Below, piece by piece: positions 15,001-21,000 of a stretch of 59,872 nucleotides of DNA. This DNA comes from Stx2-converting phage Stx2a_F349. Within the stretch, counting starts at the first letter, position 1, and every line of letters begins with the position of its first letter. Made by a program: the position numbers. The stretch lies in sequence record AP012530. One strand, 5' to 3'.

Positions 15001-18000
15001 CCTAAGCGGCTGCTGACCTCCCTGACCATGCTGTAAATCTCTTTATCCTGGTTGTCACAGAATAAGCCCGGTAAAATACGGGCTTATGAACGACATCTCT
15101 TCTGACGACATCTTCCTGCTGAAACAGCGCCTGGCCGAACAGGAAGCGCTGATCCACGCCCTGCAGGAAAAGCTGAGCAACCGGGAGCGCGAAATAGACC
15201 ATCTGCAGGCGCAGCTGGATAAACTCCGCCGGATGAACTTCGGCAGTCGTTCCGAAAAAGTCTCCCGCCGTATCGCACAAATGGAAGCCGATCTGAACCG
15301 GCTTCAGAAAGAGAGCGATACGCTGACTGGTAGGGTGTATGACCCGGCAGTACAGCGTCCGTTGCGTCAGACCCGCACCCGTAAGCCGTTCCCTGAATCA
15401 CTACCCCGTGACGAAAAGCGACTGTTGCCTGCGGCGCCGTGCTGCCCGAACTGCGGCGGTTCACTGAGCTATCTGGGCGAGGATACCGCCGAACAGCTGG
15501 AGTTGATGCGTAGCGCCTTCCGGGTTATCCGGACGGTACGGGAAAAACATGCCTGTACTCAGTGCGATGCCATCGTGCAGGCACCTGCACCTTCGCGGCC
15601 CATCGAGCGGGGTATCGCCGGACCGGGGCTGCTGGCCCGCGTGCTGACCTCGAAGTATGCAGAGCACACCCCGCTGTATCGCCAGTCAGAAATATACGGC
15701 CGGCAAGGTGTGGAGCTGAGGCGTTCACTGCTGTCGGGCTGGGTGGATGCATGCTGCCGGCTGCTGTCTCCGCTGGAAGAGGCGCTTCATGGCTATGTCA
15801 TGACTGACGGCAAACTCCATGCCGATGATACCCCGGTCCAGGTACTGCTGCCGGGTAATAAGAAGACGAAGACCGGGCGGTTGTGGGCGTATGTTCGTGA
15901 TGACCGCAATGCAGGGTCAGCGTTGGCACCTGCAGTGTGGTTCGCTTACAGCCCGGACAGAAAAGGCATCCATCCGCAGACTCATCTTGCCTGCTTCAGC
16001 GGTGTGCTGCAAGCGGATGCGTACGCCGGGTTCAACGAGCTGTATCGCAATGGTGGGATAACGGAAGCTGCCTGCTGGGCTCATGCCCGCCGAAAGATCC
16101 ACGATGTGCACGTCCGCATCCCGTCAGCACTGACGGAAGAAGCCCTGGAGCAGATCGGTCAGTTGTACGCCATAGAGGCGGATATAAGGGGAATGCCGGC
16201 AGAGCAGCGGCTTGCTGAACGTCAGCGAAAAACGAAACCGTTGTTGAAATCCCTGGAAAGCTGGTTGCGTGAAAAGATGAAGACCCTGTCGCGACACTCA
16301 GAGTTGGCGAAGGCGTTCGCGTACGCACTTAACCAGTGGCCGGCACTGACGTACTATGCGAACGATGGCTGGGTGGAAATCGACAACAACATCGCTGAAA
16401 ATGCCCTGCGGGCGGTCAGTCTGGGTCGTAAAAACTTCCTGTTCTTCGGCTCTGATCATGGTGGTGAGCGGGGAGCGCTACTGTACAGCCTGATCGGGAC
16501 GTGCAAACTGAATGACGTGGATCCAGAAAGCTACCTTCGCCATGTGCTTGGCGTCATAGCAGACTGGCCGGTCAACCGGGTCAGCGAACTGCTTCCGTGG
16601 CGCATAGCACTGCCAGCTGAATAACACATCCCCGTCAATACGGCCCTCGCTGTACGCTTACGGTTATCGTTACTAATGGTTCTTACTGTATATATTATTA
16701 AGTATATTCTTTATGCGAATAAAAAAACTAATTGATCACGATGAGCTTCTGTCAACATTATCATATGACTCAGAAACAGGAATATTTAAATGGCTAAAAA
16801 CAAATTCAGTAGTAAGAGTAAAAGGTAGTATTGCTGGAGGTGTTAGTGGTGGTTATATATGCATTAGTATAAATAATGTTTTGTATAAGGCGCATAGACT
16901 TGCTTGGTTCTATGTATACAAAAAATGGCCTCCTAAGTTTATTGATCATGTAAATGGGAACAGACTTGATAATAGGATTTCAAACCTAAGACTGGCAACA
17001 GAAGAGCAGAATGCAAGAAACATTGTAGGGAATAGATTAAACACATCCGGTGCAATTGGAGTGTCTTGGTATAAGCCAACTGGCAGGTGGAAGTCTTATG
17101 TTGGTTATAAAAATAAGACAATATCGTTAGGGTATTTCGATAGCAAAGAAGATGCAGCATTCATAGCAGCACTAGCAAGAAAGAAACTATATGGAACTTA
17201 TGCGAGTAAAGCACTTAATTGCGAGCATGAGCTTTTATCTCAATTTAATAATGATGAGGATAAACTTGCGGAATATCTTAAGGAAAAATATAAAAGGACT
17301 CGAAAGCGTGTTAAAAAAAGATAAAGGCCTGCTGGTAATCGCAGGCCTTTTTATTTGGGGGAGAGGGAAGTCATGAATCTGGACAAGCAAGATGCACAAA
17401 CTATTAGCTCATACATAAGGGCATCAAGACCAGATTACAAAGGTCCGGTATTCGTAGATTTATCTCGCCTTGAATAGATTTACATGTGGAAAGCAAGGTT
17501 ACTTACGCATTTTGTTATTCGAACGATGACTAGCAACATTACAAAACCAATGTAACTGGAAGAGGTGAATATGAGCACACTCGCAGACCTTATTCATGCC
17601 GATATGGCTGAAGATGGAGCAAGGCGTAATAGGTACTGGAAATCATCGAGCCTTCCAGTTTGTGAAAGATTCAATCACAGGCCAAAACCAAAACGTAGCC
17701 GACGAGACAAAGTGTTGAAAAAACTCATGCAAATTAACATGGCTGGTTTTGTCAGATTCGTGAGTGAAACGACTAACGGTGATTGATATGGACGAATCAA
17801 GAAAGCAGTTTGAGGAATACGTTGCCAAAAAATTGAGATTACCATTCGAGATGATAACCGAGGCAAGAAATGGTGATAGGTACTTCGCATTTTCAAGCAT
17901 GGATATTCGTCACTCCTTAAATGATTGGTGGGCTTTATGGCAGGCATCGCGAGCAGCTATTGAACTGGATATCGACTGGCCCGAATCGAATGACGACCTT

Positions 18001-21000
18001 TGGAAAGATGGTGAAGAAGGTGCTTATGCGATGGGTTATGAGGATGGGCGTGACAAAACGGTAATTGCAGTAATGAAAGCCATCAGGGCCGCAGGAATCA
18101 AAGAAAAGAATTTCGATTAAGCAAATATCACTTCAATAAATCGCTTTTAAGGCATCACAATCGCTCTGTGGTGAGGTAAGCACGTGCAAGGTATACCGAT
18201 AAGCAGCGAGAATGAAAAATGCGTCAGAATGCGTTTGAGGAGGTTTTAAGAAATGAGTACGATAGCTGAGCTTGTCAGGGCTAATTTTCGTGAAGAGTTG
18301 GTGCGTTGGTATCGGTATCGTTCATCGTCCAGTTTGCCGCTTGATGAGTTGTATGAGCATTCACCTGCCGCACGACGCTATCCGCGTGACCGTGTTCTTC
18401 GACGGTTGTTCAAACTCAACAATGAGTTTCAGCGCAACAGAATTATCCGGAGTCTGGATTTTAAGTGAAGGAGTGAGCATGAGCGACCTATCATTAACCC
18501 AGCCAAAGCTAAAAGAATGTCCGTTTTGCGGCGGTAATGCTCGTCTGTGGGTTGAGGCCGGAATAAATATTGATGTGTGGGGCTATGCAGAATGTGACCT
18601 CTGTGAAGCCAGGGTGGCATGGGCACCATCAGTTGCTGCGGCTACTGAAAAATGGAACCGGAGAGCAGGAGATGAAGCAAACCTTTCTGCTTCGCAACGA
18701 AGCAATCAGAAATAACGCCATAGACGCCATTCTCTCACTACCCATCGACGACAAGTCACCCCACGAAGTCCACGTTAAAGAACCCAAGCGCAGCAAAGCG
18801 CAGAATGACCGCATGTGGCCGATGCTGAACGATGTTTCGCGTCAGGTGCTATGGCATGGTCAACGGCTGGCGCCGGAAGACTGGAAAGACCTGTTCACTG
18901 CCCTGTGGCTTAAGACCAAAAAACTGGAGCAAAGAAGTGCGCCTGGTATCGACGGTGGCGTTGTCATGCTTGGCGTGCGTACCAGCAAAATGCGAAAGGC
19001 CAGCATGACTGAGCTTATCGAAATCATGTTCTGGTTCGGCTCAGAGCGCAACGTGCGGTGGAGTGATGACTCCCGGCGAGAGTATGAATGGTCACAACGA
19101 AAAGGGAAGGCTGCATGACTATCAAATCAAATACGCCAGCACACGACAAGGACTGCTGGCAAACGCCGCTCTGGCTTTTTGATGCGCTGGATATTGAGTT
19201 TGGATTCTGGCTGGATTCAGCTGCGAGCGACAAAAACGCTCTGTGCGCTCACTGGCTAACTGAGGCTGACGACGCGCTAAATTCTGAGTGGATAAGCCAC
19301 GGTGCAATCTGGAATAACCCACCGTACAGCAATATCAGGCCCGTGGGTGGAAAAAGCCGCTGAGCAGTGCATACAACAGCGACAGACGGTAGTGATGCTT
19401 GTGCCAGAGGATATGTCTGTCGGATGGTTCAGCAAGGCTCTGGAGAGTGTTGACGAAGTTCGCATCATCACTGATGGACGGATTAATTTTATCGAACCAT
19501 CGACAGGGCTGGAGAAGAAGGGAAACAGCAAAGGCTCAATGTTGCTGATTTGGCGACCGTTCATCAGTCCTCGACGGATGTTTACTACCGTATCCAAAGC
19601 GGCATTGATGGCGATCGGGCTGGGCGTCAGGAGGGCTGCATGAGGCGACAGCGACGAAGTATCACCGACATCATCTGCGAAAACTGCAAATACCTTCCAA
19701 CGAAACGCTCCAGAAATAAACGCAAGCCAATCCCAAAAGAATCTGACGTAAAAACCTTCAATTACACGGCTCACCTGTGGGATATCCGGTGGCTAAGACA
19801 TCGTGCGAGGAAAACAAGGTGATTGACGTGATGATTTATTCGGGGCTATATTCCTCAAACGCCAGCAAAATCTGGCGTCGGGATTGGCGTCCTGGATAGA
19901 GACCGCGACAGATACACGCCGCGAGCGTGTTTTTTATTGTCGTATGCACGCGCACATCTGAATTATGGTGGGCTGTGTGGGGGCGGAGAGATCCGCGCCG
20001 GTCGGTTTCCCGGTTACGCCAACCCTGCACAGTTCACCACCAGACGATTGGCGTCGTCGGTGGTGAGTTATTAAGAAACCACCAGAGGGCGTCATTATGA
20101 CAACTAAAATTTCTGTTGAAACTCTCTCCCCGATCACCCATAACCAGATTCCTGTTATTACCACCGAACTTTTGGCGCAGCTTTACGGCACTGAGCCGGT
20201 GCGTATTCGCCAGAATCATCATGAGAACAAAGTACGCTTCGTTGAAGGGAAACACTTTTTCAAAGTTGTTGGTAATGACCTTAAAGAATTGCGGGTAGCT
20301 TTAAACTACTCACAAAATTTGCGGGTTACTTTAAGTAACTCACAAAATTTGCGGGTTACTTTAAGTAACTCACAAAATTTGCAACCATCTTTAAGAGGGT
20401 TACAAATTTCCCCGAAAGCCCGCTCCCTCATCCTCTGGACAGAACGCGGCGCAGCCCGTCACGCAAAAATGCTCGAAACCGATCGGGCGTGGGAAGTGTT
20501 CGAAAAACTGGAAGACTGCTATTTCAGCCAGTGCGAGAAAAATACTGGCAAACAAGAGAAGAAGCTCAACGGGCTTTCCGCAAAAGAAACAGACAGCCTT
20601 GTATGGCTGTGGGATTATGCCAACCGCTCACAGGCATTGTTCCGTGAGTTGTATCCCGCATTAAAACTGATTCAGTCTGGCTATTCCGGCATATGCCACG
20701 ACTACGGCTATGAGTTCTCGTATATCATCGGGAGGGCGAGGGGCGTTTTAATTAATCACACGCGGGATATAGATATTTATGAGCCTGACGGGCCGACGAA
20801 CCTTCTGGCATGGGAAAGGCTTAAGAACAAAGAGTTGCCGCCTTCACTGCATCGCTACTGACAATTGACAACTTAACAAACCCAGCTTCGGCTGGGTTTT
20901 TTATTGCTGAATTTTCAATGTGAGAGGACATGACAATGAATGAGCTGATAAATAGCAATGCCATCAAAATGACAAGCATTGAAATCGCTGAGTTGGTGGG

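What the first reader, a model, noticed from the sequence alone, without database searches (positions are those of the whole stretch)
17565..18715. Duplicated two-gene cassette in the nin region, one copy containing a Lar-like protein
Two adjacent units each start with a 71-aa basic protein (17571..17786 and 18253..18468, clear paralogues) followed by a different partner: a 110-aa acidic protein in the first unit, a CxxC zinc-ribbon Lar-like protein in the second. Lar proteins relieve host restriction, so the first partner may be a different anti-defence cargo on a shared scaffold. The first unit sits in the AT-rich island with the HNH gene, suggesting recent acquisition.
Basis: partly seen in the sequence, partly recalled or inferred. 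Interest (0 to 1): 0.55.

Follow-up and report, generated by a model that had tools for sequence, protein, structure and literature searches.

The report
Mosaic nin-region genes, not a cassette
The two similar 71-aa genes are real, but they sit together because two known Shiga-toxin phage lineages recombined inside a shared neighbouring gene, so this is ordinary phage mosaicism in an already annotated region and not a new anti-defence cassette.

Summary
ORFs 17571-17786 and 18253-18468 are paralogues, both in Pfam DUF7301, with 45% aa identity (E=2e-16). The first is followed by a 110-aa acidic protein (phrog_343; homologues carry PF26207). The second is followed by a Lar-family zinc ribbon.

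The window is a Stx2 phage 1717-type prophage of E. coli O157:H7. RefSeq already annotates these genes as "DUF7301 family protein (x2)" and "Lar family restriction alleviation protein".

The "duplicated cassette with scaffold and cargo" reading is not supported.
- The two copies share only 48% nt identity, with third codon positions at 29%.
- Across 214 related loci there are two widespread parental layouts: A-B-ninB and B-A-Lar-ninB.
- The window equals one parent up to 18080 and the other from 17999. A single crossover in the 82-bp stretch common to both, inside the acidic-protein gene B, explains the A-B-A-Lar order.
- Lar occupies a separate swap slot just 5' of ninB. The slot has a portable linker, and the same cargos follow either A or B.
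- A and B assort independently, and each often occurs without the other.

The functions of DUF7301 and B remain unknown: no fold, profile or literature lead was found. Low interest; already known.

The parts
17323..17350 (+). tR2-like intrinsic terminator, which marks the start of the variable tR2-to-ninB segment
   Evidence: Terminator scan found a 10-bp stem with a T run. The identical sequence is annotated 'tR2 terminator' in phage Nil2 and is conserved in all four aligned phages.
17373..17477 (+). 34-aa ORF, a truncated copy of a 60-aa phrog_21123 ORF that precedes DUF7301 in type I phages
   Evidence: phrog_21123 E=1.7e-20, matching profile positions 1-34 of 60. Relatives have 60-aa versions.
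17571..17786 (+). A1: DUF7301 protein, 71 aa, pI 10.35
   Evidence: PF23975 at 108.6 bits. phrog_1785. RefSeq WP_000105280.1 'DUF7301 family protein'. AF2 model has three helices, pLDDT 81.5.
17788..18120 (+). B1: 110-aa acidic protein (pI 4.75) of family phrog_343 / PF26207. It has a conserved N-terminal motif, a variable middle and a conserved acidic C-terminal half.
   Evidence: phrog_343 E=1e-29. Homologues carry precomputed PF26207. Family alignment. AF2 pLDDT 72.
17999..18080 (+). Inferred crossover interval inside the 3' half of B1: 82 bp identical in both parental types
   Evidence: The window is identical to WGPS6 (A1-B1-ninB type) from 17312 to 18080, and identical to Nil2 (B'-A2-Lar type) from 17999 to 18760.
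18121..18252 (+). 132-nt non-coding spacer between B and A2, inherited from the type II parent
   Evidence: Identical in Nil2; one mismatch (18195) in PA28. No Rfam match and no terminator. RNA fold z-score -0.52.
18253..18468 (+). A2: second DUF7301 protein, 71 aa, pI 10.80
   Evidence: PF23975 at 91.4 bits. RefSeq WP_000103678.1.
18467..18481 (+). Portable linker GAAGGAGTGAGCATG (Shine-Dalgarno sequence plus start codon) that opens the variable slot 5' of ninB
   Evidence: The exact 15-mer precedes Lar, a 61-aa membrane ORF, a 68-aa ORF and a 60-aa ORF. It is found downstream of A2 in some loci and downstream of B in others.
18479..18715 (+). Lar-family zinc-ribbon protein, 78 aa, whose 3' end overlaps ninB by 44 nt
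   Evidence: TIGR03655 at 61.4 bits and PF14354 at 37.8 bits. phrog_599. RefSeq WP_001449504.1.
18672..19118 (+). ninB/orf recombination mediator, the fixed right boundary of the variable segment
   Evidence: PF05772 E=2.1e-48. It is the conserved right neighbour in nearly all loci surveyed.
16713..17324 (+). HNH-AP2 homing-endonuclease-like gene (GC 34%), an independent insertion upstream of tR2
   Evidence: PF13392 plus PF00847. Present in PA28 without A1-B1 and absent from most A1-B loci.

Best explanation
What it is. The interval is the variable tR2-to-ninB stretch of the nin region of a Stx2 phage 1717-type prophage. It carries four small, separately encoded accessory genes: DUF7301 (A1), an acidic PF26207/phrog_343 protein (B1), a second DUF7301 (A2) and a Lar-family zinc ribbon.

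How the arrangement arose.
- The two DUF7301 genes are old, divergent alleles from two lambdoid lineages that carry A and B in opposite order.
- Type I is (o60)-A-B-(slot)-ninB. Type II is B-A-Lar-ninB.
- One homologous crossover in the 82-bp stretch common to both (17999-18080), in the conserved 3' half of B, joined a type I left arm to a type II right arm. This gave A-B-A-Lar-ninB.
- Lar sits in a distinct swap slot directly 5' of ninB. The slot is bounded by a portable SD/start linker and by the ninB overlap, and its content is exchanged independently of the upstream gene.

How it works (inferred).
- By analogy with lambda, all four genes would be delayed-early. They would be transcribed from pR after N-mediated read-through of tR2 and translated in the tightly packed manner typical of nin genes.
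- Lar most likely acts on host type I restriction-modification, as reported for Rac Lar, although that activity is disputed.
- DUF7301 (a small basic helical protein) and B (an acidic protein) most likely act as independent host-modulating accessory proteins. Their targets are unknown. Carrying two DUF7301 copies is a by-product of recombination, not a designed pair.
For: Identity of the window:
- 100% identical to phage 1717 and to O157:H7 chromosomes, with RefSeq names DUF7301 x2 and Lar.

Breakpoint:
- The window equals WGPS6 up to 18080 and equals Nil2 from 17999.

Age of the two copies:
- 48% nt identity, third codon positions 29%, no DNA repeat.

Survey of 168 loci:
- Type I and type II are each frequent. 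Type I occurs in several distinct contexts in E. coli and Salmonella, for example phage L orf69-orf86. The type II loci sampled are near-identical Stx-phage copies.
- The A-B-A-Lar form occurs only as near-identical copies: 11-13 IMG/VR loci and 53 of 5426 E. coli genomes.

Slot:
- The same 15-mer linker and the same cargos follow either A2 or B.
- Cargos include several distinct Lar variants, DUF3850/ASCH and small membrane ORFs.

Independence of A and B:
- A identity and B identity are uncorrelated, Spearman 0.03.
- B occurs without any DUF7301 in 43 of 46 B-centred loci.
- 26 of 174 A genes have no adjacent B.

Gene packing:
- Tight ATGA-type packing is a general nin-region property (PMC8022706).
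Against: - The parents compared are representatives, not proven ancestors. The reverse history, with types I and II derived from A-B-A-Lar by deletion, is less parsimonious but not excluded.
- 148 of 174 DUF7301 genes do have B as an immediate neighbour, and A and B have opposite charge. A functional link is therefore not ruled out.
- The locus samples are highly redundant (many near-identical Stx prophages) and are capped at the best 80 hits per scan.
- No expression or functional data were examined.
- The roles assigned to Lar, A and B are inferences. The Lar prototype's activity is itself contested: restriction alleviation versus a DNase toxin (PMC4041452).
Confidence: 0.8

Rival explanations
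1. First reader's model. DUF7301 is a conserved scaffold or adaptor gene that carries interchangeable anti-defence cargo genes downstream. The locus holds two such cassettes: A1 with an unknown cargo and A2 with Lar.
For: - A2-type genes are followed, through an identical linker, by four unrelated small genes in different phages: Lar, and ORFs of 61, 68 and 60 aa.
- A1-type genes are followed by 46-48 distinct B variants.
Against: - The same linker and the same cargos also follow B with no A in between.
- B precedes A2 in type II phages, and B and Lar co-occur in series.
- B is usually found without any DUF7301.
- Lar has its own strong AAGGAG Shine-Dalgarno sequence.
- No anti-defence or defence profile matches A or B.
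Confidence: 0.07
2. DUF7301 (basic) and the PF26207 protein (acidic) form a functional two-protein unit, for example an inhibitor with a partner or a toxin-antitoxin-like pair. The locus then has one B served by two A paralogues.
For: - 148 of 174 DUF7301 genes have B immediately adjacent, on either side: 83 downstream and 65 upstream.
- Charges are opposite, +6.7 versus -7.4.
- The stop and start are 1 nt apart.
Against: - B occurs without A in 43 of 46 B-centred loci, and A occurs without an adjacent B in 26 of 174 cases.
- There is no co-variation.
- No A-B fusions exist among 56 family clusters in 1.84 billion representatives.
- Adjacency is expected anyway in a short, fixed-order nin segment.
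- PADLOC finds nothing.
Confidence: 0.12
3. An in-situ tandem duplication of an A-plus-partner unit, followed by divergence and replacement of one partner.
For: Two A genes lie 682 bp apart in the same orientation.
Against: - 48% nt identity with saturated third codon positions.
- No direct repeats.
- Both halves are 100% identical to existing single-copy phages, with a defined 82-bp junction.
Confidence: 0.02
4. The Lar-like gene is a RalR-type DNase toxin of a type I toxin-antitoxin system, and a neighbouring sequence supplies an antisense or trans RNA antitoxin.
For: - Weak similarity to the RalR equivalog NF007260, E=1.6e-6.
- RalR of Rac was reported to be a DNase toxin rather than a restriction alleviator (PMC4041452).
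Against: - The score of 28.7 bits is far below the equivalog cut-off of 113.
- No Rfam RNA lies in the region.
- Only short, chance-level complementarities were found.
- The antisense promoter-like hits are no more than expected by chance: 4 found against 5.4 expected.
- The gene overlaps ninB, and no ydaC/ralA-like region follows it.
Confidence: 0.05

Closest known systems
Pfam DUF7301 (PF23975) / phrog_1785; 'orf69' of Salmonella phages ST64T and L
   Same: Both 71-aa proteins match over the full length. They have the same size, the same basic character and the same position between the replication genes and ninB.
   Different: Nothing separates them from the family. The only unusual point is two copies in one phage, seen in 5 of 221 phage records. 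The family has no known function.
Lar / RalR of the Rac prophage (Lar family: TIGR03655, PF14354)
   Same: A four-cysteine zinc ribbon of about 60-80 aa that passes both family thresholds.
   Different: It is not the RalR equivalog (28.7 bits against a cut-off of 113). It lies in the nin region overlapping ninB, whereas Rac ralR lies immediately upstream of ydaC/ralA (PMC4041452). No RalA-like RNA was found. Its activity is untested, and the prototype's function is disputed (PMC4041452).
phrog_343 / PF26207; 'orf86' of ST64T and L; ORF29 of phage Nil2
   Same: B1 shares the N-terminal SRxQFExW motif and the conserved acidic C-terminal half. Its 3' half matches Nil2 ORF29 at 181 of 185 nt.
Modular mosaicism of lambdoid nin regions: tightly packed ATGA-coupled genes, with exchange at conserved gene boundaries
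   Same: There is a junction inside a shared gene, conserved linker sequences at gene starts, and overlap with ninB. The region is described as tightly packed and mosaic in PMC8022706.
   Different: None in kind. This is one more instance.
Lambda Ral (restriction alleviation)
   Same: A small early phage protein credited with the same phenotype as Lar (background in PMC4041452).
   Different: The sequence family and the genomic location are unrelated. No match was seen here.

Membership tests
DUF7301 (PF23975) | Full-length match above the Pfam gathering score (27 bits) | tested here: met
   A1 108.6 bits and A2 91.4 bits, both over profile positions 1-64 of 65.
Lar family restriction alleviation protein (TIGR03655 / PF14354) | Profile score above the curated cut-offs | tested here: met
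   TIGR03655 61.4 against 39.6; PF14354 37.8 against 28.6.
Lar family restriction alleviation protein (TIGR03655 / PF14354) | Four-cysteine zinc ribbon (CxxC...CxxC) | tested here: met
   C14-P-F-C17 and C39-D-L-C42 in the translation.
Lar family restriction alleviation protein (TIGR03655 / PF14354) | Alleviates type I restriction and enhances modification in vivo | not testable with these tools
   This needs plating assays. The prototype's activity is disputed (PMC4041452).
RalR type I toxin (NF007260 equivalog) | Score above the equivalog cut-off (113 bits), plus an adjacent RalA-type antisense sRNA | tested here: not met
   28.7 bits. No Rfam hit. No significant complementarity.
   No Pfam family other than DUF7301 at E<=1.
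phrog_343 / PF26207 (partner B1) | Profile match | tested here: met
   phrog_343 E=1e-29. All 120 listed homologues, including a 96%-identical one, carry precomputed PF26207. PF26207 is absent from the local Pfam copy, so it could not be scored directly.
Tandem gene-cassette duplication | DNA-level similarity between the two units that extends over both genes | tested here: not met
   A1 and A2 share 48% nt identity. The partners are unrelated. No direct repeat was found.
Obligate two-gene module (A with its downstream partner) | Conserved co-occurrence and co-variation across genomes | tested here: not met
   The same cargos follow A or B. B occurs without A in 43 of 46 loci. A and B identities are uncorrelated.
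Known anti-phage defence system components (PADLOC) | Match to a PADLOC model | tested here: not met
   No hit for A1, B1, A2 or Lar. HNH gives only a weak homing-endonuclease hit.

The most novel reading that the evidence does not exclude
The short tR2-to-ninB segment of lambdoid phages could be an unrecognised counter-defence hot spot.
- DUF7301 and the PF26207 acidic protein, with its hypervariable central segment, would be new early-acting inhibitors of host immunity or other host functions.
- The linker-bounded slot 5' of ninB (Lar, DUF3850/ASCH, small membrane proteins) would be a plug-in site for further anti-defence genes.
- Two DUF7301 alleles in one phage might then widen the range of host targets.
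Probability: 0.15. Interest if true: 0.5.

Novelty: already known. Interest (0 to 1): 0.12.

Why it matters
It matters little in itself. The sequence is a published Stx2 phage. The genes are already named in RefSeq and Pfam. The arrangement is a textbook case of lambdoid mosaicism.

Three modest points come out of the work:
- A precise recombination junction (17999-18080) explains why some O157:H7 Stx phages carry two DUF7301 genes.
- Lar lies in a linker-bounded swap slot 5' of ninB that holds unrelated small genes. This slot is a reasonable place to look for new accessory or anti-defence genes.
- DUF7301 is a very narrow, fusion-free family restricted to Enterobacterales phages, with no functional lead.

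Tried and rejected
Profile and fold searches for A and B that gave nothing:
- NCBIfam, PADLOC and PDB-sequence profiles: no hit. In the local Pfam copy, B has no hit and A matches only DUF7301.
- Foldseek against BFVD for B: no hit at E<=0.001.
- The afdb50 library was not available.

Family breadth and literature:
- An exhaustive profile search for DUF7301 found 56 clusters, all 27-111 aa, with no domain fusions to hint at function.
- Literature searches for DUF7301, PF26207 and the four RefSeq accessions returned no papers.

RNA and signal checks:
- Rfam, the promoter and terminator scan, and a fold of the 132-nt B-A2 spacer showed nothing beyond tR2.

Ideas rejected:
- Tandem duplication.
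- DUF1187/YdaC relationship.
- RalR/RalA-type toxin-antitoxin system.
- HNH as part of the same island: it also occurs with type II phages.
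Full report
**Source and annotation**

The 2.6 kb around the finding is 100% identical to Stx2-converting phage 1717 (FJ188381 / NC_011357). It is also 100% identical to prophages in several E. coli O157:H7 chromosomes. In RefSeq strain FRIK944 the genes are already named. In order they are:
- ISEc8
- an HNH endonuclease
- a DUF7301 family protein
- a hypothetical protein
- a second DUF7301 family protein
- a Lar family restriction alleviation protein
- NinB
- a phage N-6-adenine methyltransferase
- NinE

**Check of the observation**

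All four ORFs exist at the stated coordinates.
- A1 (17571-17786) and A2 (18253-18468) align at 45% identity over 56 residues, E=2e-16.
- Both match Pfam DUF7301 over its full length, at 108.6 and 91.4 bits against a cut-off of 27. Both also match phrog_1785.
- Both are basic, with pI 10.35 and 10.80.
- B1 (17788-18120) is 110 aa and acidic (pI 4.75). It has no hit in the local Pfam or NCBIfam. It matches phrog_343 (E=1e-29), and its database homologues carry PF26207.
- The 78-aa protein (18479-18715) has a CxxC...CxxC zinc ribbon and passes TIGR03655 and PF14354. It falls far below the RalR equivalog cut-off.

The codon-position identities between A1 and A2 are 45/71/29%. This shows that both are real protein-coding genes under purifying selection, and also that they diverged long ago. 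No DNA-level repeat links the two units.

**How the arrangement arose**

Related phages carry only one unit.
- WGPS6 has HNH-o34-A1-B1 followed directly by ninB.
- Nil2 and PA28 have a 92-aa gene (ORF29) followed by A2-Lar-ninB.
- ORF29 is a B-family gene. Its 5' half differs from B1, and its 3' half matches B1 at 181 of 185 nt.

Position by position, the window is identical to WGPS6 from 17312 to 18080 and identical to Nil2 from 17999 to 18760. One homologous crossover within the 82-bp stretch common to both (17999-18080), inside the conserved 3' half of B, is enough to join an A-B left arm to a B-A-Lar right arm. That gives A-B-A-Lar.

The two parental layouts are widespread; type I occurs in varied contexts, whereas the type II loci sampled are near-identical Stx-phage copies. 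The combined layout is found only as near-identical copies: 11-13 IMG/VR loci, 53 of 5426 E. coli genomes and 5 phage records. The combined form is therefore most parsimoniously the derived one.

**Synteny survey**

I collected 214 loci from IMG/VR and GenBank phages. I labelled their ORFs with HMMs built here.

- Type I is X-A-B-(slot)-ninB. It occurs in E. coli and Salmonella P22-like and lambdoid phages. In phage L and ST64T the genes are orf90-orf69-orf86-orf98-ninB.
- Type II is B-A2-Lar-ninB, typical of Stx phages. A variant, ren-A2-Lar-ninB, lacks B.
- Of 174 DUF7301 genes with enough flanking sequence, 148 have B adjacent: 83 downstream and 65 upstream. The other 26 have none.
- Of 46 loci retrieved with divergent B proteins, only 3 contain any DUF7301.
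- Among 55 unique A-B combinations, A identity and B identity are uncorrelated (Spearman 0.03). Nearly identical A genes sit next to B genes of 12-100% identity.

A and B therefore assort as independent modules.

**The Lar slot**

The gene just 5' of ninB starts after a conserved linker, GAAGGAGTGAGCATG (window 18467-18481). In many loci it ends in the ninB overlap, encoding ...ASQRSNQK. The slot holds several distinct Lar variants, a DUF3850/ASCH protein, small membrane proteins and other short ORFs.

The same linker, and even the same cargos (a 61-aa and a 68-aa ORF), occur downstream of A2 in some phages and downstream of B in others.

Tight stop-start spacing is a general feature of nin regions (PMC8022706). 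It is not evidence of a dedicated pair.

**Function**

The region begins at a tR2-like terminator (17323-17350). By analogy with lambda, the genes would be delayed-early and read from pR after N antitermination. This is an inference.

Lar:
- Lar-family membership is met by sequence.
- The restriction-alleviation activity rests on work with Rac Lar. That work was later challenged by a report that RalR is a DNase toxin (PMC4041452).
- I found no sign of a RalA-like RNA.

DUF7301:
- The AF2 model is a three-helix bundle or hairpin with pLDDT 81.5, and it has no informative structural neighbour.
- The family is tiny: 56 clusters at 50% identity among 1.84 billion representatives. All members are 27-111 aa, with no fusions. 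Named members and phage hosts are all Enterobacterales.
- Conserved residues cluster at RY..SSLP..E and RRD.VL.

B:
- The AF2 model has pLDDT 72. The conserved acidic segment at residues 68-85 has pLDDT below 50.
- There are no significant matches in the PDB or BFVD.
- No paper mentions either family.

My commitment is that A and B are independent early accessory proteins acting on unknown host targets. The second DUF7301 copy is a recombination by-product. The basic/acidic A-B complex idea keeps about 0.12 probability.

**The AT-rich island**

- GC rises gradually from HNH (34%) through A1 and B1 (43.5% each) to A2 and Lar (48-49%).
- HNH lies upstream of tR2. It also occurs in PA28, which lacks A1-B1, and it is absent from most A1-B loci. 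It is therefore a separate insertion.
- The left arm did come from another lineage, but by ordinary homologous exchange.

**Verdict**

- Nothing here departs from known kinds: an annotated, published phage region and a standard mosaic junction.
- Interest is low.
- The residual novel possibility is that this segment is a counter-defence hot spot with DUF7301 and PF26207 as new effectors. It is not excluded, but it has no positive evidence.

Noticed in passing
window 19115-19643 (extra C at 19340): The phage dam-type N-6-adenine methyltransferase gene is frameshifted in the window by one extra C (CCC versus CC) relative to strain FRIK944, where it is an intact 175-aa CDS. This is either a pseudogene or a sequencing error.
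   Followed up: partly
window 17373-17477: The 34-aa ORF after tR2 is a truncated copy of a 60-aa phrog_21123 ORF. A TAG at 17475-17477 stops it where relatives read on. Most type I phages surveyed keep the 60-aa version directly upstream of DUF7301.
   Followed up: partly
window ~14312-16661: ISEc8 (tnpA, tnpB, transposase) is inserted between the replicative helicase gene and the HNH gene. Only 8 of the E. coli genomes listed match the first 62 nt of the query, so most carriers of the A-B-A-Lar arrangement lack this insertion.
   Followed up: partly
window 16713-17324: An HNH-AP2 homing-endonuclease-like gene with very low GC (34%) lies between the replication genes and tR2. It occurs independently of the DUF7301 layout, for example in PA28.
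   Followed up: partly
window 18467-18481 and 18672-18715; loci L026, L044, L059, L082, L147, L163: A swap slot just 5' of ninB is bounded by the linker GAAGGAGTGAGCATG and by the ninB overlap. It holds Lar variants, DUF3850/ASCH, small membrane ORFs and others. The same cargo is found after DUF7301 in some phages and after the B gene in others.
   Followed up: yes
B family (window 17788-18120; alignment A4): The PF26207/phrog_343 protein has a conserved N-terminal motif (SRxQFExW) and a conserved acidic C-terminal half. Its central segment is replaced by many unrelated alternatives: 46-48 distinct variants next to near-identical DUF7301 genes.
   Followed up: partly
loci L022, L134: An in-frame Lar-NinB fusion ORF of 212 aa occurs in two IMG/VR copies of the same arrangement. 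It is probably a frameshift or an assembly error.
   Followed up: no
loci L011, L012, L029 and 11 others, upstream of the 60-aa ORF: A 67-aa cysteine-rich ORF (KCKCG...C..YC...WN) looks like a Lar-type zinc ribbon, but it has no Pfam hit.
   Followed up: partly
window 20097-20861: The antirepressor Ant ORF contains an internal tandem peptide repeat (…[10 protein letters not shown]… about three times).
   Followed up: no
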